DNA of 64,000 nt from the sequence record OZ346175.1. One strand, written 5' to 3'. A model generated the notes under the pieces. The model saw nothing but the letters and a program-made list of their open reading frames with translations. It had not been told where the DNA came from and did no database searches. The DNA is from a phage. Position 1 is the stretch's first letter, and each line of letters opens with the position of its first letter. Shown here one piece after another: positions 53,181 through 63,556 of this stretch. The translations under genes were made by a program, and so were the position numbers.

Positions 53181-53208
53181 AAAATAAAAAAGGCTCCCGA
53201 AGGAGCCT
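53181..53208 (-). terminator. rho-independent terminator (minus strand)
   Basis: aggctcc-loop-ggagcct hairpin with U-run on the minus strand, after lysozyme gene. Confidence 0.55.
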
Positions 53209-53217
53209 ATGAAGATA

Positions 53218-53682
53218 TTACTTTGGATATACACTGTCAAGATAAATGTCAGCTTCCATTCTACGTCTGTTTTTCAGGCCGTTTGAAGTGACCTTCTTAC
53301 CTTTGACTGTGACCTTGTTCCACCACTGCATAGCTTCTGCACAACCAACCTTATTACCAGCATTGTGGCGCTTGATAAATGTGGAGTCCTGCATAGCCGT
53401 GATACCAATGTTGTATGTTTCACTTACAAGTGCATCAAACTCATTCTGAGAAGTTGGAACCTTGATAGCTTTGTTAACTGCTGCAACGAATTTTTCAACA
53501 TCTGCAAGAAGATACTGTTCAGCTTGTTCAGCCGTAATTTTCATACCCATCTTAACAGGCTTCCCACCAATACGGATTGTTCCATACCCAATTGTGGGGA
53601 TTCCAGCAGAATCTTCGTAAGCCTCTAGCTTAAGACCTTCAAAGAACTTAATAGCTTCTAAACCTTTTCTTGAGAGTTGCAT
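53218..53682 (-). CDS. T4-type lysozyme (glycoside hydrolase family 24-like endolysin)
   Basis: EGLKLEAYEDSAGIPTIGYG aligns with T4 lysozyme catalytic region. Confidence 0.8.
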   Translation of the reverse strand: MQLSRKGLEAIKFFEGLKLEAYEDSAGIPTIGYGTIRIGGKPVKMGMKITAEQAEQYLLADVEKFVAAVNKAIKVPTSQNEFDALVSETYNIGITAMQDSTFIKRHNAGNKVGCAEAMQWWNKVTVKGKKVTSNGLKNRRRMEADIYLDSVYPK

Positions 53683-54566
53683 TATGCCTCCCCTGCTGGA
53701 TTAACTGTAACTGTTGCCGCATTAGATGTTACAGAGCCGCCTGCACCAGTCACTACACAAGTGTAGCTTCCTGCATCAGCGGTTGTTGCACCTTCTTTGG
53801 TGTAAGTTGCAGTAGTTGCATCGAGGATGTCTTCCTCACCTTTCTTCCACTGGTAATCTGTCGCACCTGTTGCCACAACATTCAGCGTTAAGGTATCACC
53901 TTCAGTGATTTCTTGATTGGTTGGTTGCTGAGTGATTACCGGAAGTGCGTTCACAGTCACTGTTGCTGCATCTGAGGTAACACTTGTTCCACCCTCTCCA
54001 GATACAACACAAGTGTATGAACCAGCGTCAGAAGGTGCTACTGACTGTTTTGTGTAAGTTGCAGAATTGGCACTAGGGATATCCTCACCATCCTTCTTCC
54101 ACTGATATCCAGTGGCGTTAGTTGCTAGAATGCTTAGAGTAAGTGTGCCACCCTCATTGACTGTTTGACCTGTTGGTTGCTGAGTAATTGCTGGTGGCTT
54201 AATAGCATCCTTCAACTTAGCATTCAACATTGAGAACGGCTTAACTCTTGCCAACCATTCACAGTAAATTGTGTCAACATCTTTACCATTGATGATTGCA
54301 TACTGCAAATCCATGAAGAAATCAGCAGTTCTCATCTGTGCACCAACACTGTAAAGCAATTCATCACTAAATGGAACTTTGTAGTCTGGTTTGTAGTCAA
54401 ACTTCTCAACTTCTGCAATATCAGCTTCAGGCCAATATGAACTATAGGTAAGTGGTAAAATAGCCTCTTGATATGTTCTAAAATCATACCTCTTACCAGC
54501 CTTTACATTTGCAATGAAACCCTTCACAAACTCTTTGAAGTCTGGGTAAGTCTTTGCTTTAATCAT
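53682..54566 (-). CDS. hypothetical protein with two Ig-like domains
   Basis: N-terminal about 120 aa paralogous to next gene; two tandem Ig-like repeats (YQWKKDGEDI...AGSYTCVV). Confidence 0.55.
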   Translation of the reverse strand: MIKAKTYPDFKEFVKGFIANVKAGKRYDFRTYQEAILPLTYSSYWPEADIAEVEKFDYKPDYKVPFSDELLYSVGAQMRTADFFMDLQYAIINGKDVDTIYCEWLARVKPFSMLNAKLKDAIKPPAITQQPTGQTVNEGGTLTLSILATNATGYQWKKDGEDIPSANSATYTKQSVAPSDAGSYTCVVSGEGGTSVTSDAATVTVNALPVITQQPTNQEITEGDTLTLNVVATGATDYQWKKGEEDILDATTATYTKEGATTADAGSYTCVVTGAGGSVTSNAATVTVNPAGEA

Positions 54567-54934
54567 TTCTTTTTAGCCTCTAAATGTGCGTTTAGTCTAA
54601 AATAACCTTTGTGATGCGGAGATACATCACCAACAACAATACCTTTAACCTTATAGCCTTTACCAATTACATACTGGATATCCATAAGGAATCTTCCAAG
54701 TCCAACAATATGGAACATTGGATATAATAGGTTCTCAGAATCTGGAATATTGATTTCAGGTTTGTAGGTACGCTGTTCGATTGTTGGTGTAATATCTTCT
54801 TCAGGCCATTTGCTGAGTCTCCATGTCAAAGGTGTTGGGATAACATCATTAAGGTTGTACCTTTCACCATTTTGCACGGAATTGATATAGGATTGTAGGA
54901 AGCAATAAAAGTCTTTTGCACTCTTAGCTTTCAT
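54563..54934 (-). CDS. hypothetical protein (paralog of N-terminal domain of 53682..54566)
   Basis: Shares KAK..DF..YI..V..G.RY...PLT...WPE.DI...YKP...MDIQY.I pattern with downstream gene. Confidence 0.5.
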   Translation of the reverse strand: MKAKSAKDFYCFLQSYINSVQNGERYNLNDVIPTPLTWRLSKWPEEDITPTIEQRTYKPEINIPDSENLLYPMFHIVGLGRFLMDIQYVIGKGYKVKGIVVGDVSPHHKGYFRLNAHLEAKKK

Positions 54935-54981
54935 TAAATATCCTTATAAATAGTTAAAGGGGCATCAGCCCCTATTCACAC

Positions 54982-55572
54982 TTAAGCTTTGGTCTTAAGT
55001 AGGTTCTTAAGTTTTTTAAGATTCATACTCTCATCAAACTTAAAACCAAATCCATTGACATAATCAATGAACTCGGATTTCTTACTGAGTGACAATGCGT
55101 AACTCATATCAAAGTTCTTACTTGTTTCTGCGTCTGGACTAGAGTTCACATCAAATGAAATTTCTGTAGGCTCTTGCTTACTCTTTCTCATGTTATCAAC
55201 CAACAAACATGTATAATTTGCTGGATAGAAATTTACACTACCATCAACGTAGCTGTACTTATTATTATGGATAAGGTTGGAAAATACCTTAAGGAATGTT
55301 TCTGAGTCGTGGCAAACAAGTTTGAATTGGCTGCTCTCTCCAAGCGCAACTAATGAGTACGGACTTTCACTATCAAAGTCATAATTTTGATTCGATGCCG
55401 TTACTGTTGCACGCATCAAGTTATTAGCAATAGTCTTCTGTTTAAAAGAATTTTGAACATAGTGAAGACCTCTATCACACTGATTGACTAGCTCTTTAAG
55501 CAGGTCATTTGCATATGGTGAATTAATTGATACAGAGCCATCACTATTGTAATTAAAACTTACTGTTAACAT
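54982..55572 (-). CDS. hypothetical protein
   Basis: 196-aa ORF. Confidence 0.45.
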   Translation of the reverse strand: MLTVSFNYNSDGSVSINSPYANDLLKELVNQCDRGLHYVQNSFKQKTIANNLMRATVTASNQNYDFDSESPYSLVALGESSQFKLVCHDSETFLKVFSNLIHNNKYSYVDGSVNFYPANYTCLLVDNMRKSKQEPTEISFDVNSSPDAETSKNFDMSYALSLSKKSEFIDYVNGFGFKFDESMNLKKLKNLLKTKA

Positions 55573-56645: not shown

Positions 56646-58061
56646 ATGAGCGAGTTATTTAAACATGCGCACCTTCATGCAGGTCGAACTGAAAATGGTG
56701 CTGTAAACCATACTTCATCAATGTCTGCTCTAGTAAACTTTTACAAAGCTGCTGGTTCAAGCCGTAGCAACGTAGAAATCTTACCAGACCTGTTCTACAA
56801 AGCTTTGCGTGAGGATGTTGATGTTGCAGTTCGTATTTTGCTTCATATGCGAGATGTACGAGAAGGTATGGGTGAGCGTAAAGCCTTCAGGACTGTTTTG
56901 CTTCAAGCAATTGAAGACAAAGTTTTAGAGTCTACGCAGGTTCTTCGCATTATGGATAAGATTGCAGAACTTGGTCGTTTTGATGACTTCAAAATCTTCG
57001 TAGGTACTCGTTTCGAGACAGATGCCTTCAAACATTTAGAAGCAGCATTACTAGACCCTGCAACAGAAGGTTTGGCGGCTAAGTGGTTACCACGAGTCAA
57101 ACCACGTCATAAGCAGTTTGTAAAACGTTTCTGCAAGTTTGCCAACTTGAGTGAGAAAGAGTACCGCACACTGTTGTCTGCACTATCTGATACAGTTGAG
57201 CAAAAAATCTCTGCTAATGAGTTTGGTAAGATTGACTACAGTAAGATTCCTTCACTTGCTGCTGCACGTTACCAAAAACTGTTTAACCGTAAAGATGGAG
57301 AGCGTTACAAAGCTTACATCGAGTCCTTATCAAAAGGTGAGACTAAGATTAACGCTGGTGCTGTTTACCCATACGATGTGATTAAATCTGTCAAGTATGG
57401 TAATGCAGATGTTGCTAATGAGCAGTGGAAAGCACTACCAAACTGGATGGCAGAAGGTGAAAACATCTTGTGTATGTCTGATGTATCAAGTTCAATGTCT
57501 TGGGTGAATTTTGGCTCCATTACTGCTCTGGATATTGGTGTATCACTTGCCTTGTATGTAGCAGAACGCAATACAGGTTGCTTTAAGAATGAGTTAATGG
57601 TTTATTCAACAAACCCTCACTTCATCGAACTGAGTGGTGATTTACGAAACCGTCATCGTCAGGTGATGCGACACGTTGAATATGGCTCAACTAACTTACA
57701 AGCAGCTTTTGACCGCATTCTTGAAACAGGTAAAAGAAACAACTTGACTCAGAAAGATATGCCAAGTAAGCTTATCATCTTCTCCGATATGGAGTTCAAT
57801 CAGGTTGATGGAGCTAACGGTCGTACAAACTTTGAAGCAATTCAGAGTAAGTACAAAAAAGCTGGATATGAGATGCCACAACTGGTATTCTGGTACTTAG
57901 CAAACCGTAATGGTACTTGCGAAGTATCTGTTAAGGATAACGGTGTAGCAATGGTATCAGGGTTCTCTCCAGCCACTTTAAAAGCTCTGCTTGGTGGTGA
58001 GAAGTTTGACCCAATCAGTGTAATGCTCAAAGCAGTAATGATTGACCGTTATATCTGGTAA
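56646..58061 (+). CDS. Ro60-like (TROVE + von Willebrand A) protein
   Basis: 471 aa; helical N-terminal region then vWA MIDAS DVSSSM in ILCMSDVSSSMSW, plus IIFSDMEF and C-terminal GFSPATL blocks matching recalled Ro60. Confidence 0.6.
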   Translation: MSELFKHAHLHAGRTENGAVNHTSSMSALVNFYKAAGSSRSNVEILPDLFYKALREDVDVAVRILLHMRDVREGMGERKAFRTVLLQAIEDKVLESTQVLRIMDKIAELGRFDDFKIFVGTRFETDAFKHLEAALLDPATEGLAAKWLPRVKPRHKQFVKRFCKFANLSEKEYRTLLSALSDTVEQKISANEFGKIDYSKIPSLAAARYQKLFNRKDGERYKAYIESLSKGETKINAGAVYPYDVIKSVKYGNADVANEQWKALPNWMAEGENILCMSDVSSSMSWVNFGSITALDIGVSLALYVAERNTGCFKNELMVYSTNPHFIELSGDLRNRHRQVMRHVEYGSTNLQAAFDRILETGKRNNLTQKDMPSKLIIFSDMEFNQVDGANGRTNFEAIQSKYKKAGYEMPQLVFWYLANRNGTCEVSVKDNGVAMVSGFSPATLKALLGGEKFDPISVMLKAVMIDRYIW

Positions 58062-58227: not shown

Positions 58228-58304
58228 CTCTGTTTAGCTCAGCTTGGTAGAGCGTTCCGTTTGGGGCGGTAAGGCCGGAGGTTCAAGTCCTCCAACAGAG
58301 ACCA
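58228..58304 (+). tRNA. tRNA-Pro (anticodon TGG)
   Basis: Hand cloverleaf: acceptor ctctgtt/aacagag, anticodon loop ttTGGgg, T-arm ggagg-ttcaagt-cctcc, CCA encoded. Confidence 0.7.
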
Positions 58305-58311
58305 AATTAAT

Positions 58312-58389
58312 GTTCCAGTAGACAAAATGGTAAAGTCACCACTCTTTCAAAGTGGATATCTGAGGGTTCAAATCCCTTCTGGAACGCCA
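58312..58389 (+). tRNA. tRNA-Glu (anticodon TTC)
   Basis: Acceptor gttccag/ctggaac, anticodon stem ccact/agtgg, loop ctTTCaa, T-loop ttcaaat, CCA encoded. Confidence 0.6.
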
Positions 58390-58396
58390 GTTTTGA

Positions 58397-58469
58397 CAGA
58401 AGACCAATTACAGCAAACTTAATCTTATTCATCTGAAGGTAAATCGGACAAAGAAGAGATTTGGTCTGG
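58397..58469 (+). ncRNA. structured element A (cagaagacc...ggtctgg stem family)
   Basis: 5' cagaagaccaattacagcaa and 3' tggtctgg; stem agacca/tggtct; family member without tRNA-like module. Confidence 0.35.
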
Positions 58470-58480
58470 TCATTAAGAAT

Positions 58481-58557
58481 TGCGGGTATAGAGAAAGGGC
58501 GTCTCACATGTCTCATTAGCATGGTATCGGCAGGTTCGACTCCTGCACCCGCCTCCA
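58481..58557 (+). tRNA. tRNA-Met or Ile2 (anticodon CAT), non-canonical acceptor
   Basis: D-stem gaga/tctc, anticodon stem catgt/gcatg, loop ctCATta, T-arm gcagg-ttcgact-cctgc; acceptor pairing needs one mismatch. Confidence 0.5.
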
Positions 58558-58563
58558 AATTTG

Positions 58564-58624
58564 CAGAAGACCGTATTCAGCAACAAAATACTTTTTTGCG
58601 GATAAAAGAAAAAACACGGTCTGG
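58564..58624 (+). ncRNA. structured element B (cagaagacc...ggtctgg stem family)
   Basis: cagaagaccgtattcagcaa ... cggtctgg; stem agaccg/cggtct (compensatory relative to A). Confidence 0.35.
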
Positions 58625-58635
58625 CAATGTATTAA

Positions 58636-58712
58636 GGTTAGGAAGCACATAAGGTATGTGCGGTCGCCTGTTAAGCGAATGGCACAGGGTTCGAATCCCT
58701 GACTAACCGCCA
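58636..58712 (+). tRNA. tRNA-Asn (anticodon GTT)
   Basis: D-stem gcac/gtgc, anticodon loop ctGTTaa, T-arm caggg-ttcgaat-ccctg, CCA encoded; position 8 is A (atypical). Confidence 0.55.
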
Positions 58713-58720
58713 AATTAAAT

Positions 58721-58808
58721 GTGTCGTTATCCCGTAGATGGTAGCGGTGGGGACTGTAAATCCCTTGTCATTGAGACTCGGTAGGTTCGACTCCTACACG
58801 GCACACCA
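58721..58808 (+). tRNA. tRNA-Tyr (anticodon GTA)
   Basis: 88 nt with long variable arm; anticodon stem gggga/tccct, loop ctGTAaa; T-arm gtagg-ttcgact-cctac; CCA encoded. Confidence 0.7.
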
Positions 58809-58813
58809 ATAAA

Positions 58814-58890
58814 GGCTATGTAGTTTAACTGGAGAAAATACTCCCCTGTCACGGGAGATGATGTGAGTTCAAGTCTCATCGTAGCCGCCA
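58814..58890 (+). tRNA. tRNA-Asp (anticodon GTC)
   Basis: Acceptor ggctatg/cgtagcc, anticodon stem ctccc/gggag, loop ctGTCac, T-loop ttcaagt, CCA encoded. Confidence 0.75.
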
Positions 58891-58951
58891 ATTTTGAGAG
58901 GGCTATTTAGCCCCTCCCTTAAAGAGTTCTTACGAGTATTCTTTAAGGGAG

Positions 58952-59035
58952 CAGAAGACCAAATACAGCAAGAATGTATGAAATTTCAAGCCAATTTAAT
59001 TTTGAAAATTTAAAACTTGGTCTGGCTCAACAAAT
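58952..59035 (+). ncRNA. structured element C (cagaagacc...ggtctgg stem family)
   Basis: cagaagaccaaatacagcaa ... ttggtctgg; stem agaccaa/ttggtct. Confidence 0.35.
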
Positions 59036-59038
59036 TTA

Positions 59039-59170
59039 CAGAAGACCGTTTACAGCAAAACTTAAACAATCTATTTCTCCGGTAAAGAAAAGGCGAAGGT
59101 TCGATTCCTTCACTCGGCAGATGTCGAGTTGGTGTAATGGTAGCACTTAAGATGATAAACAACGGTCTGG
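59039..59170 (+). ncRNA. Y-RNA-like element D with circularly permuted tRNA-like module
   Basis: 8-bp closing stem agaccgtt/aacggtct; internally T-arm gaagg-ttcgatt-ccttc, acceptor-like stem actcggc-agat-gtcgagt closed by a loop, then D-arm gtg-taatggtag-cac. Confidence 0.5.
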
Positions 59171-59171
59171 T

Positions 59172-59315
59172 AATTATCTTTGTAGATAAGTTATTAAGCT
59201 TACCTGTGAGTATGCGACCACAAAGGGTGAAAGGGTAAATTCTAGATTTAAACCCAACAAGGCACATCGCTACAGACCTTAAGCAAGTCTGGGTAGCTTA
59301 TCTACAAAGATAATT
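59172..59315 (+). ncRNA. structured element closed by 19-bp perfect inverted repeat
   Basis: aattatctttgtagataag (59172-59190) exactly complementary to cttatctacaaagataatt (59297-59315); internal cagacc...gtctgg hairpin. Confidence 0.4.
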
Positions 59316-59319
59316 TAAT

Positions 59320-59395
59320 GGAAGTGTAGCAGAATGGTGATGCGGCAGACTTTTAATCTGACAGGCGATGGGTTCGAATCCCTCCACTTCTACCA
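59320..59395 (+). tRNA. tRNA-Lys (anticodon TTT)
   Basis: Acceptor ggaagtg/cacttct, anticodon loop ctTTTaa, T-loop ttcgaat (T-stem needs a bulge), CCA encoded. Confidence 0.55.
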
Positions 59396-59399
59396 ATAT

Positions 59400-59476
59400 G
59401 GTTCAGTCGCAGATAAGGTAATGCAAGGGTCTCATAAGCCCTATGAATGTTGGTTCGATTCCCATCTGAACCTCCA
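59400..59476 (+). tRNA. tRNA-Met (anticodon CAT)
   Basis: Acceptor ggttcag/ctgaacc, anticodon stem agggt/gccct, loop ctCATaa, T-loop ttcgatt, CCA encoded. Confidence 0.6.
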
Positions 59477-59477
59477 A

Positions 59478-59553
59478 GCTGGTATAGTTAAGAAGGTTAT
59501 AACACTCCCCTGATAAGGGAACATCGGTGGTTCGATTCCACCTACCAGTACCA
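59478..59553 (+). tRNA. tRNA-Ile (anticodon GAT)
   Basis: Acceptor gctggta/taccagt, D-stem gtta/taac, anticodon loop ctGATaa, T-arm ggtgg-ttcgatt-ccacc, CCA encoded. Confidence 0.75.
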
Positions 59554-59568
59554 ATTTCAATAAAGTTG

Positions 59569-59597
59569 TTGACATTGAGATGTGACTACTTTATAGT
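59569..59597 (+). promoter_or_regulatory. sigma70-type promoter internal to tRNA cluster
   Basis: TTGACA-N17-TATAGT. Confidence 0.5.
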
Positions 59598-59798
59598 AAC
59601 CTTAGTTTTCGTTGCGTAGCGTCTATTTTGCAAATTTAAAATAAATGCAAACGACAATGTTTTTCTGGCAGTAGCTTGATAGGCTAAACACCAGTGAGGT
59701 CTTCCAATCCCTCATCAAAGAATTTGGCGTACTCGCCCACGGTATGATTAATAAGGTGGGCATCTTTAAGGGCTTTCTAAGAGAGTCTTTAAAGATAA

Positions 59799-59876
59799 TG
59801 CACCCTTAGTTCAATTGGATAGAGCAACGGTCTTCTAAATCGTTAGTTACAGGTTCGAATCCTGTAGGGTGTACCA
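59799..59876 (+). tRNA. tRNA-Arg (anticodon TCT)
   Basis: Acceptor gcaccct/agggtgt, D-arm gttc-aattggata-gagc, anticodon stem acggt/atcgt, loop ctTCTaa, T-arm acagg-ttcgaat-cctgt, CCA encoded. Confidence 0.75.
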
Positions 59877-60018
59877 AATAGTTAGCAGATTACTTAGACG
59901 GCCTTAGCGGGTCTTCCTGTAGGGAGGTGGTCTGTATCTCATGTTTTCCAGAACATGTAAATAATCTGAGAAGAAGCTTGACAGTGTTGAGATAACAGGG
60001 TAAGCTTCGAATTATAAT

Positions 60019-60101
60019 ATGGGACGATGTTAAGACTCTAAGGCATGAGCAACGGCCTCCAAAACCGTTTCAAAGGGGTTCAACTCCTCCGTCCCATGCC
60101 A
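60019..60101 (+). tRNA. tRNA-like gene, probable Trp (anticodon CCA), atypical D region
   Basis: Acceptor atgggac/gtcccat, anticodon loop ctCCAaa, T-loop ttcaact, CCA encoded; D region about 7 nt longer than canonical. Confidence 0.45.
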
Positions 60102-60114
60102 AAGTCTTATTAGG

Positions 60115-60202
60115 GGTAGGTAGCGGCTAATGGCAGCCAAACAGTCTTGAAAACTGTTGCCACTGTAGAGATACGGTGAGGGTTCGACTCCTTTACTTAC
60201 CG
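60115..60202 (+). tRNA. tRNA-Ser (anticodon TGA)
   Basis: 88 nt with long variable arm; anticodon stem acagt/actgt, loop ctTGAaa; T-arm gaggg-ttcgact-ccttt; CCA not encoded. Confidence 0.7.
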
Positions 60203-60458
60203 CCTAATAAGATTTACTCCGTCCATGCTTGTTCGCATTGTCGGTTTATCCCTCGTGTATTGTCGTACACTGTCAAAGCACCTAGTAGGTGTCACGGAGA
60301 AGAGATAATATCAAGCTCTCCAAAGGTTCTAGTCACCGGATTAAACAAGACTATGCAAAGACCTATTTAGGTCTTTTTAGAGGGCTTCTAAGGTTATTAG
60401 TCGCTTGTTGTGGAACCTTGTTGCTCAGGTTCTTAGAAGTTCTCTAAAAAGATTTAAT

Positions 60459-60536
60459 GGGAGATTGACGGTAATTGGTAAACCTACCATCCTTAGAAGT
60501 TGGTGTTTGAGGGTTCGAATCCCTTGTCTCCTACCA
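60459..60536 (+). tRNA. tRNA with apparent anticodon TAG (Leu-type) on short-variable-arm scaffold
   Basis: Acceptor gggagat/gtctcct, anticodon loop ctTAGaa, T-arm gaggg-ttcgaat-ccctt, A73, CCA encoded; no long variable arm. Confidence 0.45.
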
Positions 60537-60543
60537 AATTAAT

Positions 60544-60619
60544 GCAGGTGTAGCAAAATGGTTATGCGGCTGACTCTTAATCAGTAAGACGATGGGTTCA
60601 ATTCCCTCCACCTGTACCA
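60544..60619 (+). tRNA. tRNA-Lys (anticodon CTT)
   Basis: Paralog of 59320..59395; acceptor gcaggtg/cacctgt, anticodon stem gctga/tcagt, loop ctCTTaa, T-loop ttcaatt, CCA encoded. Confidence 0.6.
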
Positions 60620-60625
60620 GACATC

Positions 60626-60702
60626 GGGGTCATAGTTTATATGGTTAAAATTCGAGTTTTGCAAACTTGGGAACTGAGTTCAATTCTCAGTGACTCCACC
60701 AA
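60626..60702 (+). tRNA. tRNA-Ala (anticodon TGC)
   Basis: Acceptor ggggtca/tgactcc, anticodon stem cgagt/acttg, loop ttTGCaa, T-arm ctgag-ttcaatt-ctcag, CCA encoded. Confidence 0.7.
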
Positions 60703-60708
60703 TTAGTG

Positions 60709-60781
60709 CATCCATAGTTTAAACGGGAAAATTACAGTCTTCCAAACTGAGGTTGAGGGTTCGATTCCCTCTGGATGCTCC
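60709..60781 (+). tRNA. tRNA-Gly (anticodon TCC)
   Basis: Acceptor gcatcca/tggatgc, anticodon loop ctTCCaa, T-arm gaggg-ttcgatt-ccctc. Confidence 0.65.
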
Positions 60782-60796
60782 AAATTAAGGTGTGAT

Positions 60797-61210
60797 ATGA
60801 AAATATGCAGTACTTGCAGAATACCAAAAGATGAAAGCTTATTCCATAAGAATAAGAACAAGAAAGATGGTCTTCAAAGTCAATGCAAAGACTGTGCAAG
60901 ACTTCGTGATGCAAAGAGTTATCAAGCAAATGATAAAAGGAAAGAGGCTATTAAAAGCACTCGTAACTTCAAGAGAGAGTATAACAAGACTCTAGCTAGA
61001 AGGTACAAAGCTTTATGCAAATGTCATATATGTGGTGAGAAAGAACCAGTTGCATTGGATTTACACCATACAGACCCTTCCCAGAAAGATTTGAATCCTG
61101 CATCACTTTATTCATACTCCACAAAAAGATTAAAAGATGAAATCAGAAAGTGCATTGTCTTGTGCGCTAACTGTCACAGAAAAGTACATGCTGGTATCAT
61201 AAAAGTTTAA
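60797..61210 (+). CDS. HNH endonuclease inside tRNA cluster
   Basis: 137 aa; zinc-binding Cys pairs and HNH motif (LDLHHTDP...CANCHRKVH); flanked by tRNA genes. Confidence 0.75.
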   Translation: MKICSTCRIPKDESLFHKNKNKKDGLQSQCKDCARLRDAKSYQANDKRKEAIKSTRNFKREYNKTLARRYKALCKCHICGEKEPVALDLHHTDPSQKDLNPASLYSYSTKRLKDEIRKCIVLCANCHRKVHAGIIKV

Positions 61211-61211
61211 T

Positions 61212-61288
61212 GCTGCTTTCGTATAATTGGCTATTACACATCCCTTGTAAGGATGGAAATGCAGGTTCAAGTCCTGTGAGCAGCACCA
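61212..61288 (+). tRNA. tRNA-Thr (anticodon TGT)
   Basis: Acceptor gctgctt/gagcagc, anticodon stem catcc/ggatg, loop ctTGTaa, T-arm gcagg-ttcaagt-cctgt, CCA encoded. Confidence 0.75.
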
Positions 61289-61292
61289 ATTC

Positions 61293-61379
61293 AGAGGTCA
61301 AGTGAAAGACCGCTTTGAGTCAACTGAAGACCGTAACAAATCCCACGGAGTTGAGTTAGCGGCACAACTCCAGACCTCT
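61293..61379 (+). ncRNA. structured element E between tRNA genes
   Basis: Closing stem agaggtc/gacctct; internal hairpin ggagttg-agttagcggca-caactcc; two gaagacc motifs. Confidence 0.35.
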
Positions 61380-61384
61380 TTCAT

Positions 61385-61459
61385 ACTCGCTTAGTTTATA
61401 TGGTAAAACATCACCCTTACAAGATGAAGAAAAAGGTTCAAGTCCTTTAGTGAGTACCA
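61385..61459 (+). tRNA. tRNA-Val (anticodon TAC)
   Basis: Acceptor actcgct/agtgagt, D-stem gttt/aaac, anticodon loop ctTACaa, T-arm aaagg-ttcaagt-ccttt, CCA encoded. Confidence 0.7.
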
Positions 61460-61460
61460 T

Positions 61461-61538
61461 GTTCCAGTATCCCAATTGGCAGAGGATGCAAGCTCAAACC
61501 TTGTATTAGTGACGGTTCGAATCCGTCTTGGAACACCA
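61461..61538 (+). tRNA. tRNA with apparent anticodon CAA (Leu-type) on short-variable-arm scaffold
   Basis: Acceptor gttccag/ttggaac, anticodon stem gcaag/cttgt, loop ctCAAac, T-arm gacgg-ttcgaat-ccgtc, A73, CCA encoded. Confidence 0.45.
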
Positions 61539-61543
61539 ATTTT

Positions 61544-61619
61544 GCAGGATTAGTTCAAATGGATAGAGCAACAGTCTACGAAGCTGTTAATAGGGGTTCG
61601 AATCCCTTATCCTGCGCCA
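61544..61619 (+). tRNA. tRNA-Arg (anticodon ACG)
   Basis: Acceptor gcaggat/atcctgc, D-arm gttc-aaatggata-gagc, anticodon stem acagt/gctgt, loop ctACGaa, T-loop ttcgaat, CCA encoded. Confidence 0.75.
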
Positions 61620-61638
61620 ATTTAAAGAGGCTATTTAG

Positions 61639-62196
61639 ATGAGATATTTGAAGTATGCTTCATGGATTTTTTTAGCTTTGTTAGAGCCATTTGCAGCAAT
61701 CTTAGCAGTTATCTTAGCACCTTTTGTAGTTCCATTCTACAGTGAGAAGAAAGGACACTTACCTTTCGGGTTCAGATGGATGGAGACATATGACAACCCA
61801 ATTGATGGTGATGAAGGTCACGTTAAAAGATGGGCTAATATTAGATGGATTGGTAAACTAGGTGTCTACATGCAAAGAGTCGGATGGCTCTGGAGAAACA
61901 AAGCTTATAACTTCTCTTACCATGTATTAGGAAGAGATGTAAGAGATGTTACTAAGTGGAAAGGTAATATCAACGTAAGTTCTGACCCCGAAGATAATCA
62001 GACAGGTTATCTCCTAATGTGGAACAGTAATGCTTGGGGATTATTCGCTTTTATCCCATCAATTAAAATCTTTGGTAAACAATTTTACTGGAGAATTTAT
62101 ATTGGATGGAAACTAAAAAGTGTTGTCCCAGAAGAAAGAGCATTCTCAAGGGAAAGAGTTATGTTGGCATTCTTTATTCATCCACTGAGAAAGTAA
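61639..62196 (+). CDS. hypothetical membrane protein
   Basis: 185 aa; hydrophobic N-terminus (WIFLALLEPFAAILAVILAPFVVPF), Trp-rich; embedded in tRNA cluster. Confidence 0.5.
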   Translation: MRYLKYASWIFLALLEPFAAILAVILAPFVVPFYSEKKGHLPFGFRWMETYDNPIDGDEGHVKRWANIRWIGKLGVYMQRVGWLWRNKAYNFSYHVLGRDVRDVTKWKGNINVSSDPEDNQTGYLLMWNSNAWGLFAFIPSIKIFGKQFYWRIYIGWKLKSVVPEERAFSRERVMLAFFIHPLRK

Positions 62197-62204
62197 AGAT
62201 TTAA

Positions 62205-62280
62205 AGGGGATTAGTTTACAAGGTTAAAACCTCGGTCTTTGAAATCGAAGAAGTTGGTTCAATTCCAACATCCCCCGCCA
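62205..62280 (+). tRNA. tRNA-Gln (anticodon TTG)
   Basis: Acceptor aggggat/atccccc with unpaired 1:72, anticodon stem tcggt/atcga, loop ctTTGaa, T-arm gttgg-ttcaatt-ccaac, CCA encoded. Confidence 0.65.
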
Positions 62281-62282
62281 AT

Positions 62283-62361
62283 GCTCCATTACTCCAATTG
62301 GCAGAGAGGCCAGACTTAAAATCTGTGTTATGTATCGGTTCGAATCCGATATGGAGTACCA
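62283..62361 (+). tRNA. tRNA with apparent anticodon TAA (Leu-type) on short-variable-arm scaffold
   Basis: Acceptor gctccat/atggagt, anticodon loop ctTAAaa, T-arm atcgg-ttcgaat-ccgat, A73, CCA encoded; variable region 7 nt. Confidence 0.45.
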
Positions 62362-62366
62362 AATTT

Positions 62367-62442
62367 AGCGGTATAGCATAACTGGCAATGCAGCAGCCTC
62401 TGAAGCTGTCCTATTAAGGTTCAAATCCTTATGCCGCTGCCA
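62367..62442 (+). tRNA. tRNA-Gln (anticodon CTG)
   Basis: Acceptor agcggta/tgccgct, D-stem gcat/atgc, anticodon stem gcagc/gctgt, loop ctCTGaa, T-arm taagg-ttcaaat-cctta, CCA encoded. Confidence 0.65.
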
Positions 62443-62473
62443 CTTCTAAGGATTCTTGCGAGAGTCCTTAAAT

Positions 62474-62549
62474 GTGGCCTTATCATAAACGGTAATGACC
62501 CATGCTGTGAACATGGTCTATACGGGTTCAAATCCCGTAGGTCACCCCA
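62474..62549 (+). tRNA. tRNA-His (anticodon GTG)
   Basis: Acceptor gtggcct/aggtcac, D-stem tcat/atga, anticodon stem ccatg/catgg, loop ctGTGaa, T-arm acggg-ttcaaat-cccgt, CCA encoded. Confidence 0.75.
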
Positions 62550-62554
62550 ATTTA

Positions 62555-62631
62555 TAGTCCAAGTAGCTTATATGGTTAAAGCGCGTGTCTGAAAAACATG
62601 AGAAGAGGGTTCAAATCCCACTGGACTACCA
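62555..62631 (+). tRNA. tRNA-Phe (anticodon GAA)
   Basis: Acceptor tagtcca/tggacta, D-stem gctt/aagc, anticodon stem cgtgt/acatg, loop ctGAAaa, T-loop ttcaaat; 3' end register ambiguous. Confidence 0.55.
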
Positions 62632-62647
62632 ATTTCAAAGGTGCTTA

Positions 62648-63382
62648 ATGAAAGAGATGACAGAACAAGGTAAGGAGATTTTTAATCTCTTAAAAACTGG
62701 TAAAGGGTTCTCTAACCCGCTTATTACTGGTGCAGCAGTTCTCGGTGGAACCGTAGCTGCTTCTACATCACTTGTAAGCTCTATTAGTTCTGTAACAGAC
62801 CCTACAATGAAAGAGAAACTTGTTGCTGCTGGACTTACAACAGTCCTTCTAAACAGCTTTACAACAAGCCTTACAAGCACTACAGCAACTACTAAAACTC
62901 TGACAGACTACGGTCAAAAATCTATTGATGAGTTTTCATCACGTATGCAGGTAGCAAAGGGGTATTCCAATGTTATGGGTGCAGCAGGAGAACAAGTTGG
63001 TTGTACACCATTCAGTGGTATCATGGGTGTTGCTACAGAGTATGGTCAAAAAGCTATTGACATGATGAACAGTACACTAGATAGTGTTAATGGTGTGTTA
63101 AGTGACTTACAAGATGCTATTGATAAGGGTCTTGATACTGTTTCTGATTTAGCTAACCAAGCTGTCAGTAAGATTAATGAAGGTATTTCAAAGATTACAG
63201 CTTATGCAGATGAAGTTGTGCAGATGATTGAAGAAGAAGCTGCCCCTATTGCAGAGTACCTTAAAACGAATATCAATGGGTTCTTAGCAGGTATCTTACC
63301 AGACTGGTTTGACGATGCTTGTAAAACTGGTGTGATTGACACTATTGCAACACCAGAAATGAAGAGCGCATTACAGAAATAA
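62648..63382 (+). CDS. hypothetical Ser/Thr-rich protein
   Basis: ORF 62585..63382 trimmed to MKEMTEQ to clear tRNA-Phe; Ser/Thr-rich low-complexity N-terminal half. Confidence 0.45.
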   Translation: MKEMTEQGKEIFNLLKTGKGFSNPLITGAAVLGGTVAASTSLVSSISSVTDPTMKEKLVAAGLTTVLLNSFTTSLTSTTATTKTLTDYGQKSIDEFSSRMQVAKGYSNVMGAAGEQVGCTPFSGIMGVATEYGQKAIDMMNSTLDSVNGVLSDLQDAIDKGLDTVSDLANQAVSKINEGISKITAYADEVVQMIEEEAAPIAEYLKTNINGFLAGILPDWFDDACKTGVIDTIATPEMKSALQK

Positions 63383-63383
63383 T

Positions 63384-63476
63384 GGAAGATTAACCCTAAA
63401 AGGTAAGGGAGCAGTTTGCTAAACTGCCAGTAGCTGAGAAATCGGTGTACCAGTTCAAGTCTGGTATCTTCCTCCA
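63384..63476 (+). tRNA. tRNA-Ser (anticodon GCT)
   Basis: 93 nt with 21-nt variable arm; acceptor ggaagat/atcttcc, D-stem ccc/ggg, anticodon stem gcagt/actgc, loop ttGCTaa, T-arm accag-ttcaagt-ctggt, CCA encoded. Confidence 0.75.
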
Positions 63477-63480
63477 ATTT

Positions 63481-63556
63481 GAATCCGTGACAGAAATGGA
63501 TATGTACCTGTCTGCAAAACAGGTTTATAAGGGTTCGAGTCCCTTCGGATTCTCCA
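63481..63556 (+). tRNA. tRNA-Cys (anticodon GCA)
   Basis: Acceptor gaatccg/cggattc, anticodon stem cctgt/acagg, loop ctGCAaa, T-loop ttcgagt, CCA encoded. Confidence 0.75.

What the first reader, a model, noticed from the sequence alone, without database searches (positions are those of the whole stretch)
53682..54934. Tandem paralogs next to the lysozyme gene, one fused to two Ig-like domains
The first 120 aa or so of 53682..54566 and the whole of 54563..54934 share a conserved pattern (KAK..DF..YI..V..G.RY...PLT...WPE.DI...YKP...MDIQY.I). The longer copy adds two tandem Ig-like repeats (YQWKKDGEDI...GSYTCVV), typical of surface-exposed or carbohydrate-binding phage modules.
Basis: seen in the sequence. 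Interest (0 to 1): 0.45.

Follow-up and report, generated by a model that had tools for sequence, protein, structure and literature searches.

The report
Capsid decoration gene plus Ig-less paralog
The long gene is the already-solved, Hoc-like head decoration protein of Felix O1-type phages (wrongly labelled "tail protein" in databases), and the short gene just upstream is an old, conserved copy of its capsid-anchor domain without the Ig domains, whose role is unknown.

Summary
The window is a Felixounavirus genome (99.3% DNA identity to LF82P9). ORF A (53682..54566, minus strand, 294 aa) and ORF B (54563..54934, minus strand, 123 aa) are true paralogs: BLASTP 38% identity over 101 aa, E=1e-16, z=25 against shuffles.

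A is not new. It is Hex-Dec / Sf14 gp20 / Felix O1 gp36, a monomeric Hoc-like protein. Its N-terminal ~118-aa capsid-binding domain (CapBD) plugs the centres of 60 capsid hexamers (PDB 9NCF and 9C2D, chain S). It displays 1-4 Ig-like domains; this phage has two.

B is a stand-alone CapBD (Felix O1 ORF37, Sf14 gp21). It goes unmentioned in both cryo-EM papers and is absent from the Felix O1 virion proteome.
- The duplication is old: the B-A-lysin order holds in three lineages.
- The B stop overlaps the A start (ATGA or an 8-nt overlap).
- B is under purifying selection (dN/dS 0.12).
- B has glycine in place of the capsid-contact Arg79.
- B is basic, whereas A's CapBD is acidic.
- B is dispensable: one clade carries it as a deletion pseudogene, and one genome carries a B::A fusion.

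Its mechanism is inferred only. My best guess is a non-virion or sub-stoichiometric factor that binds capsid hexamers. Interest is modest.

The parts
54563..54934 (-). ORF B, 123 aa, 14.3 kDa, basic. It is a stand-alone paralog of the Hex-Dec capsid-binding domain with no Ig domains (= Felix O1 ORF37, Sf14 gp21, VpaE1 ORF40c; phrog_4463, unknown function).
   Evidence: phrog_4463 E=6e-80; cross-hit to phrog_3995 E=4e-15; phmmer to 9ncf_S 6e-12 and 9c2d_S 2e-11; Foldseek hits only 9ncf_S and 9c2d_S, prob 1.0, TM 0.6; dN/dS 0.12.
53682..54566 (-). ORF A, 294 aa, 31.6 kDa, pI 4.5. It is Hex-Dec, the Hoc-like hexamer-centre capsid decoration protein (= Bas63 Hex-Dec, Sf14 gp20, Felix O1 gp36), annotated 'tail protein' in most genomes.
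   Evidence: 9ncf_S E=1.6e-245; 9c2d_S E=1e-167; phrog_3995 E=1e-170.
54213..54566 (-). Capsid-binding domain (CapBD) of A, residues 1-118. It carries Arg79 and Arg107, which in Sf14 gp20 form salt bridges to Asp221 of the major capsid protein.
   Evidence: dN/dS is 0.04.
53946..54197 (-). Ig-like domain 1 of A (residues ~124-207). It corresponds to Ig1 of the four-Ig Bas63-type protein (92% identity).
53697..53945 (-). Ig-like domain 2 of A (residues ~208-290). It corresponds to the terminal Ig4 of the four-Ig protein (94% identity). The internal Ig2 and Ig3 units are absent.
53218..53682 (-). Endolysin (GH24 phage lysozyme), 154 aa, the last gene of the unit. Its start overlaps A's stop (TAATG).
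53191..53208 (-). Terminator-like G+C-rich hairpin with a T-run, directly after the lysin gene. It is the likely end of the B-A-lysin transcription unit.
54788..54808 (.). 21-nt stretch encoding WPEEDI in B. It is a direct repeat (86% identity) of 54414-54434, which encodes WPEADI in A. The crossover of the natural B::A fusion in phage SP3_SHan-2021 falls in this motif.
54414..54434 (.). Partner copy of the repeat, inside A's CapBD.
54959..54972 (-). GGGGC-TGAT-GCCCC hairpin between the upstream 196-aa gene and B, followed by B's Shine-Dalgarno sequence (AAGGA, 54941-54945). It is conserved even in genomes where B is a pseudogene.
   Evidence: weak: z=-2.

Best explanation
SHOWN. The window comes from a Felix O1-type myophage (Felixounavirus). 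ORF A is that group's Hex-Dec protein, a monomeric, Hoc-like head decoration protein. In its solved homologs the N-terminal ~118-aa capsid-binding domain (CapBD) sits in the centre of the 60 pentamer-adjacent hexamers of the T=9 capsid. It is held partly by Arg79 and Arg107, which pair with Asp221 of the capsid protein, and its acidic Ig-like domains project outward. This phage has two of them, equivalent to Ig1 and Ig4 of the four-domain version. ORF B is a duplicate of the CapBD alone and ends exactly at the domain boundary. The duplication predates the split of Felixounavirus, Mooglevirus and a third, metagenomic lineage. B's stop overlaps A's start, and B-A-lysin ends at a terminator-like site. 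B evolves under purifying selection but has diverged strongly: 42 positions are conserved within each family yet differ between them, Arg79 is Gly, and net charge is +2 against -1.

INFERRED (about 0.35). B still targets the centre of capsid-protein hexamers, but as an Ig-less, non-displaying accessory. It might bind a different state or class of hexamer, such as procapsid hexamers or the 20 three-fold hexamers. Alternatively it might compete with Hex-Dec and so set how many Ig fibres a head carries. Either way it would be absent or sub-stoichiometric in purified virions. It is dispensable for plaque formation.
For: - **Identity of A.** phmmer gives E=1.6e-245 to 9ncf_S (Bas63) and 1e-167 to 9c2d_S (Sf14). 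Both Arg residues are conserved. Cryo-EM placement and the 1-4 Ig domain count come from PMC12609058 and PMC11821841. Felix O1 gp36 was found in virions by MS (PMC3185647), and the ORF35/36/37 order is confirmed.
- **B is a CapBD paralog.** BLASTP E=1e-16, z=25, phmmer 6e-12 to 9ncf_S. The AF2 model of B matches only the two CapBD chains in the PDB (prob 1.0, TM 0.6).
- **Age and retention.** The 196aa-B-A-lysin order is seen in all 27 loci whose sequence reaches the lysin gene; 25 have an ATGA overlap and 2 have an 8-nt overlap. The same order occurs in the divergent contigs L036 and L037. An NJ tree gives separate A and B clades, each containing all three lineages. Outgroups have a single CapBD gene.
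- **Selection.** dN/dS is 0.12 for B, 0.04 for A's CapBD and 0.08 for the lysin.
- **Divergence.** G78 replaces R79; median pI is 8.6 against 5.5.
- **Not a detectable virion protein.** Felix O1 ORF37 is absent from a proteome that did detect 9.7-13.7 kDa proteins. VpaE1 reported no extra protein at this locus. Both cryo-EM papers report no density on the other hexamers.
- **Dispensable.** An internal-deletion pseudogene is present in Z31 and fKMPT1. About 19 of 253 records have no B-level match, and relatives match the deleted locus in one piece, with A annotated as a single gene in most of them.
- **Still related to capsid binding.** A natural B(1-48)::A fusion replaces the gene pair in SP3_SHan-2021. 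In one outgroup lineage, an Ig-less CapBD is the only copy.
Against: - No direct evidence shows that B binds capsids at all.
- One of the two published capsid-contact arginines is lost in every B sequence. The other varies (H, Q or R).
- Neither cryo-EM study saw extra density, and B is missing from the Felix O1 virion proteome. A structural role in the mature head is therefore unlikely.
- The B-less clade annotates A as a single gene in most listed records, so B is not an obligatory chaperone of A.
- The AF2 model of B is only moderately confident (pLDDT 62), so I attempted no surface or interface analysis.
- The SP3 fusion is a single record and could be an assembly error.
Confidence: 0.72

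Rival explanations
1. B is a second true decoration protein of the mature head. It would occupy the 20 hexamers on the icosahedral three-fold axes that Hex-Dec does not bind, through a different and more hydrophobic or basic interface. It would have been missed because a monomer on a three-fold axis is smeared by icosahedral averaging and because the protein is small.
For: Hex-Dec binds only the pentamer-proximal hexamers. In three-fold hexamers the Asp221 residues are shifted away from Arg79 and Arg107. B has replaced exactly that region with its own invariant segment, PMFHIVGLG, and is basic. B and A have overlapping stop and start codons.
Against: Both cryo-EM papers state that the other hexamers show no density. 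T4 Hoc is seen despite averaging, as cited. The Felix O1 virion MS detected proteins of 9.7-13.7 kDa but not ORF37. B is a pseudogene in a viable clade.
Confidence: 0.12
2. B has taken on a new function unrelated to the capsid, such as binding a host or other phage protein. It would keep only the CapBD fold.
For: There are 42 conserved-but-different positions, a charge reversal and loss of Arg79. B is absent from virions. B's dN/dS is three times that of A's CapBD.
Against: The strict adjacency and start/stop overlap with A have been kept across three lineages. B's N-terminal 48 residues substitute for A's in a natural fusion. No other domain or motif was found in Pfam.
Confidence: 0.2
3. B is a functionless leftover of a duplication that is slowly decaying.
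For: It is lost in about 19 of 253 records and fused in one. Its function is unknown.
Against: dN/dS is 0.12 with dS up to ~1.2. The reading frame is intact at 122-124 aa in all 29 loci where the gene is present (27 IMG/VR loci, Sf14 and the window), and at 122 aa in a lineage only 45% identical. Long invariant B-specific segments exist.
Confidence: 0.04
4. A is a tail protein or tail-associated carbohydrate-binding module, as it is annotated in most GenBank records.
For: Database labels say 'tail protein' or 'major tail protein'. Felix O1 gp36 was called major tail protein in 2010.
Against: PHROG 'major tail protein' hits cover only the Ig region, residues ~96-208. Two cryo-EM structures place the homolog at hexamer centres of the head. 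The Bas63 paper explicitly calls the tail annotation inaccurate.
Confidence: 0.02

Closest known systems
Hex-Dec of Escherichia phage Bas63 (PDB 9NCF chain S) and gp20 of Shigella phage Sf14 (PDB 9C2D/9C3A chain S); Felix O1 gp36
   Same: ORF A is the same protein family. It has a near-identical CapBD with Arg79 and Arg107, the same Ig-like repeat type, the same position upstream of the endolysin, and the same 'tail protein' misannotation. ORF B shares the CapBD fold and 35 conserved positions.
   Different: A has two Ig domains (Ig1 + Ig4), against four in Bas63 and three in Sf14. B has no Ig domains, has Gly for Arg79, is basic rather than acidic, and has not been seen in virions.
[quoted passage not shown]
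   Same: It works alike: a non-essential monomer at hexamer centres that displays a string of Ig-like domains. Proposed roles are adhesion, aggregation and environment sensing.
   Different: The domain order is reversed, with the capsid-binding domain C-terminal in Hoc. [quoted passage not shown] Sequence similarity is confined to the Ig domains. I know of no Ig-less paralog described for Hoc (own knowledge, not tested).
T5 pb10 decoration protein
   Same: [quoted passage not shown]
   Different: Only the Ig domain matches (5lxk_A and 8zvi_a align to A residues 128-207). The anchor domains are unrelated in sequence and did not appear in the fold search.
Single-copy CapBD proteins of other Ounavirinae-like phages (Kolesnikvirus M7 gp008; metagenomic P0059, P0060, P0061)
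   Same: They have the same CapBD and the same locus next to the lysozyme gene.
   Different: They carry different display modules: Big_2-type Ig, or only a Lys/Ser-rich tail in P0060. None has a second, Ig-less copy.

Membership tests
Ounavirinae Hex-Dec / Sf14 gp20 decoration protein | N-terminal ~118-aa capsid-binding domain homologous to the modelled chains 9ncf_S and 9c2d_S | tested here: met
   A: E=1.6e-245 and 1e-167. B: E=6e-12 and 2e-11, with Foldseek prob 1.0 and TM 0.6.
Ounavirinae Hex-Dec / Sf14 gp20 decoration protein | Capsid-contact arginines Arg79 and Arg107 (salt bridges to capsid-protein Asp221 in Sf14) | tested here: met
   Met for A, where both are present. NOT met for B: Gly78 in all B sequences; position 107 is His in the window, Gln in most, and Arg in the divergent lineage.
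Ounavirinae Hex-Dec / Sf14 gp20 decoration protein | One to four C-terminal Ig-like domains displayed from the CapBD | tested here: met
   A has two (Pfam Ig_3 6e-23, Ig_2 6e-18). B has none: it ends at the CapBD boundary and has no Pfam hit. B therefore fails this feature.
Ounavirinae Hex-Dec / Sf14 gp20 decoration protein | Physically present at centres of the pentamer-proximal hexamers of the virion | not testable with these tools
   For A this is inferred from homologs (cryo-EM; Felix O1 MS). For B the published evidence is negative: it is absent from the Felix O1 virion proteome and the papers report no extra density.
Ounavirinae Hex-Dec / Sf14 gp20 decoration protein | Gene lies outside the structural module, directly upstream of the GH24 endolysin | tested here: met
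T4 Hoc family | N-terminal Ig domains followed by a C-terminal Hoc capsid-binding domain, with sequence homology over the whole protein | tested here: not met
   PHROG 'Hoc-like' hits cover only A residues 120-292, the Ig part. The domain order is reversed and the CapBD is topologically distinct (PMC12609058). A is an analog, not a member.
Phage major tail / tail tube proteins with Ig extensions (the database annotation) | Homology to a tail tube or tail protein core domain | tested here: not met
   Hits to phrog_158, phrog_853 and phrog_3575 align only to the Ig region, A residues ~96-208. The N-terminal domain matches only CapBD chains.

The most novel reading that the evidence does not exclude
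B is a previously unrecognised capsid-hexamer ligand. It would be an Ig-less 'blank cap' that binds hexamer centres Hex-Dec cannot use (procapsid or three-fold hexamers) or competes with Hex-Dec. Either way it would tune how many Ig fibres each head displays. That would be a two-gene system for regulating capsid decoration, which has not been described for Hoc-like proteins.
Probability: 0.2. Interest if true: 0.5.

Novelty: new variant of a known kind. Interest (0 to 1): 0.3.

Why it matters
The long protein matters mainly as an annotation fix. It is a head decoration protein, not a tail protein, which is relevant for phage display and for the immunogenicity or mucus adherence of therapeutic Felix O1-type phages.

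The short paralog is the only open point. Both 2025 cryo-EM studies asked why Hex-Dec decorates only 60 of 80 hexamers, and neither mentioned that a second CapBD gene sits next door with its stop overlapping the Hex-Dec start. If B binds hexamers, it offers a simple, testable handle on site selection and on the copy number of Ig fibres. Natural knockouts (mio, REP8-12, fKMPT1, Z31) are already available for that test. If B does not bind hexamers, it is one more small accessory gene.

Tried and rejected
1. **'Tail protein' annotation.** Rejected: only the Ig region hits tail families, and cryo-EM of homologs says head.
2. **Carbohydrate binding.** No CBM or lectin family matched. It stays untested.
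3. **Functional link to lysis.** The adjacency to the lysozyme is conserved synteny, also seen around single-copy CapBD genes. On visual inspection B has no hydrophobic stretch long enough for a holin; I ran no formal TM prediction.
4. **B as an obligate chaperone of A.** Disfavoured, because the B-less clade annotates A as a single gene in most listed records.
5. **Search for the divergent B (P0055) in IMG/VR.** Nothing found. It was found instead by exact look-up.
6. **VpaE1 proteome table.** The held supplement text contains only Table S1, so gp40 detection could not be read directly. Non-detection is inferred from the main text.
7. **wV8 and UAB_Phi87 papers.** They hold no useful virion proteome for this locus.
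8. **Transcriptomics of Felixounavirus.** No relevant paper turned up.
9. **AF2 model of B.** pLDDT is 62, with residues 32-48 below 50. It is good enough for fold assignment but not for interface analysis, so I made no surface claims from it.
10. **Promoter scan.** The count was not above the shuffle expectation, so I claim no promoter.

Full report
**1. What is there**

The window matches Felix O1-type myophages (Felixounavirus). The 2.7 kb around the finding is 99.3% identical to Felixounavirus LF82P9 and 95-97% identical to dozens of E. coli, Salmonella and Shigella phages. Three tightly packed genes lie on the minus strand:
- ORF B, 54563..54934, 123 aa.
- ORF A, 53682..54566, 294 aa.
- A GH24 endolysin, 53218..53682, 154 aa.

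B's stop overlaps A's start (ATGA), and A's stop overlaps the lysin start (TAATG). A terminator-like G+C-rich hairpin with a T-run follows the lysin. Upstream lies a conserved 196-aa gene of unknown function, then a divergent intergenic region. On the other strand are DUF5681, a DUF2828 'RNA-binding' gene and a 26-tRNA array.

**2.

- A against B: 38% identity over 101 aa, E=1e-16. The Smith-Waterman score is 147, against 27 +/- 4.8 for shuffles (z=25).
- PHROG profiles cross-hit. A matches phrog_4463 (B's family) at 1e-16, and B matches phrog_3995 (A's family) at 4e-15.
- A carries two Ig-like domains (Pfam Ig_3 6e-23, Ig_2, I-set) that are 67% identical to each other.

**3. What A is (already known)**

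- A matches PDB chain 9ncf_S ('Immunoglobulin-like domain protein', phage Bas63 capsid) at E=1.6e-245. It matches 9c2d_S/9c3a (Sf14 gp20) at E=1e-167.
- The two source papers show a monomeric, Hoc-like decoration protein. Its N-terminal ~118-aa capsid-binding domain (CapBD) sits in the centre of the pentamer-proximal hexamers of a T=9 head (one per asymmetric unit) and not on the other hexamers.
- In Sf14, Arg79 and Arg107 form salt bridges to capsid-protein Asp221.
- The Ig domains are flexible and number 1-4 across the genus (PMC12609058, PMC11821841).
- Both arginines are present in the window's A.
- The Bas63 authors state that the widespread 'tail protein' label is wrong. That label goes back to Felix O1 gp36, found in virions by MS in 2010 and called 'major tail protein' (PMC3185647). 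In Felix O1, ORF35/36/37 are lysin/A/B.
- Against a four-Ig reference, the window's two domains correspond to Ig1 (92%) and the terminal Ig4 (94%). Related loci show Ig1, Ig4, Ig1-4, Ig1-2-4, Ig1-2-3 and Ig1-2-3-4. Copy number therefore changes by in-register gain or loss among units that are ~70% identical.

**4. What B is**

- B is a CapBD with nothing attached. It ends ('...LNAHLEAKKK') where A continues into the linker to Ig1.
- phmmer links B to the two CapBD chains (6e-12 and 2e-11).
- An AF2 model of B has moderate confidence (pLDDT 62, pTM 0.64). In the whole PDB it matches only 9ncf_S and 9c2d_S (prob 1.0, TM ~0.6). In BFVD it matches the Sf15, Sf16 and Z31 homologs.
- B corresponds to Felix O1 ORF37, VpaE1 ORF40c and Sf14 gp21.
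- Neither cryo-EM paper mentions it. Word searches for 'paralog' and 'gp21' return nothing, and 'duplicat' occurs in the Bas63 paper, where the only passage shown concerns image processing.

**5. Evolution**

- An exhaustive profile search of 1.84 billion cluster representatives finds only 12 CapBD representatives. The domain is confined to Felix O1-like phages.
- In 27 IMG/VR loci plus Sf14 and the window, B is 122-124 aa. It is followed by A (210, 294, 372/377 or 461 aa) and the lysin in all 27 loci whose sequence extends that far. The B/A overlap is 4 nt in 25 of these and 8 nt in 2.
- A divergent 87-kb metagenomic phage contig has the same order, 195 aa - B' (122 aa) - A' (298 aa, two Ig) - lysozyme. 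B' is 45% identical to B, and A' is 57% identical to A in the CapBD.
- In an NJ tree, the A and B clades each contain Felixounavirus, Mooglevirus and this third lineage. The duplication therefore predates their split.
- More distant relatives keep the same locus frame but have one CapBD gene with other display parts. Kolesnikvirus M7 gp008 and P0059 carry Big_2-type domains. P0060 carries only a Lys/Ser-rich tail.
- Pairwise Nei-Gojobori dN/dS is 0.12 for B, 0.04 for A's CapBD, 0.12-0.13 for Ig1 and 0.08 for the lysin. B is a selected coding gene that evolves about three times faster than its paralog.

**6. How B differs from A's anchor**

- 35 alignment positions are conserved in both families and probably form the fold core.
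- 42 positions are conserved within each family but differ between them. They are concentrated in B residues 74-113.
- Arg79 of A is Gly78 in every B sequence, within the invariant segment PMFHIVGLG. Position 107 is His, Gln or Arg.
- B is basic (median pI 8.6, net +2). A's CapBD is acidic (pI 5.5), and whole A has pI 4.5.

**7. Is B in the virion, and is it needed?**

- The Felix O1 structural proteome detected gp36 (A) and small proteins of 9.7-13.7 kDa, but not ORF37.
- The VpaE1 study lists only gp54, gp58 and gp68 as additions to the Felix O1 set. That implies gp40 was not detected; this is an inference, because the table itself is a figure.
- Both cryo-EM studies report no density at the remaining hexamers.
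- About 19 of 253 phage records have no B-level match. In the two loci examined directly (Z31 and fKMPT1), B is a remnant with a lost start and a ~227-bp internal deletion. The fKMPT1 B-less locus (remnant plus A) is matched in one uninterrupted piece by fBSPA4, mio and REP8-12, and A is annotated as a single gene in most of these records. I did not inspect their sequence.
- One genome, SP3_SHan-2021, has a single 292-aa gene made of B residues 1-48 joined to A from residue ~50. The crossover lies in the shared WPE(E/A)DI motif, which is also a 21-nt direct repeat in the window.
- B is therefore dispensable for propagation. Its N-terminal lobe appears to be tolerated in place of A's, if that record is not an assembly artefact.

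**8. Mechanism**

The parts that are shown:
- A's identity and, by close homology, its mode of binding.
- B's homology, age and the selection acting on it.
- The start/stop overlap of B with A.
- B's dispensability and its non-detection in virions.

The inferred part, at about 0.35, is that B still addresses capsid-protein hexamer centres but as a non-displaying accessory. It may bind a different hexamer state or class, or it may compete with Hex-Dec.

| Rival | Probability |
|---|---|
| A true decoration of the 20 three-fold hexamers | 0.12 |
| A new function away from the capsid | 0.20 |
| Functionless remnant (contradicted by dN/dS and by the intact frame in three lineages) | 0.04 |
| A is a tail protein (refuted for homologs) | 0.02 |

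**9. Verdict**

However, the main object is a known, structurally solved decoration protein. The only new element is the Ig-less CapBD paralog, which the two cryo-EM papers and the searches run here do not discuss. It is a modest but cleanly testable lead.

Noticed in passing
L003:2001-2879 (Salmonella phage SP3_SHan-2021, MW296865.1); window repeats 54414-54434 and 54788-54808: A single 292-aa gene replaces the B+A pair. Residues 1-48 come from B and the rest from A, with the crossover in the shared WPE(E/A)DI motif. It is the only such record among 253 and could be a genuine unequal recombination or an assembly artefact.
   Followed up: partly
L004:1806-1997 (Shigella phage Z31) and L005:1806-1997 (fKMPT1). 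fBSPA4, mio and REP8-12 match the B-less fKMPT1 locus in one uninterrupted piece.: In Z31 and fKMPT1, B is a pseudogene with a lost start and a ~227-bp internal deletion. A is a single annotated gene in most records of this group. In Z31, A itself is split into 134-aa and 55-aa ORFs.
   Followed up: partly
window 53697-54197; loci L008-L034: The Ig domains behave as cassettes. The window has Ig1+Ig4 of the four-unit version. Relatives have Ig1, Ig4, Ig1-2-4, Ig1-2-3 or Ig1-2-3-4. The experimentally evolved VpaE1_ev78 and phage LF82P5 carry about 250 bp more than the window here.
   Followed up: partly
L038:5001-5462 and L039:952-1413 (metagenomic contigs, protein P0060): In a distant lineage the only CapBD gene next to the lysozyme has no Ig domain, just a ~30-aa Lys/Ser-rich tail. 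An Ig-less CapBD can therefore be the sole copy.
   Followed up: no
window 56646-58061 (+) and 58228-63556 (+): A 471-aa DUF2828/DUF7788 'RNA-binding protein' lies directly upstream of an array of 26 tRNA genes. The DUF2828-DUF5681 pair is conserved next to the CapBD-lysozyme block even in distant relatives.
   Followed up: no
window 54982-55572 (-): The 196-aa protein (phrog_4034, unknown function) always precedes the CapBD gene or genes, including in single-copy lineages where it is ~183-206 aa. One homolog has a faint PF26097 Phage_Inh_N hit. It may belong functionally with the decoration locus.
   Followed up: no
window 54959-54972 (-): A GGGGC-TGAT-GCCCC hairpin lies between the 196-aa gene and B. 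It is conserved even where B is a pseudogene. Its folding energy is only weakly better than shuffles (z=-2).
   Followed up: partly
BFVD hit A0A7H0XFQ0 (Pseudomonas phage phiK7A1, 155 aa): This is a weak fold match to the B model (prob 0.91, TM 0.52, 16% identity). It may be a distant CapBD-like protein outside the Ounavirinae.
   Followed up: no
phage-database hits: One record labelled 'Staphylococcus phage SA1' carries this Felixounavirus locus. VpaE1's table gives its B homolog as 99% identical to VpaE1 ORF40c. The host label is probably wrong or the sample contaminated.
   Followed up: no
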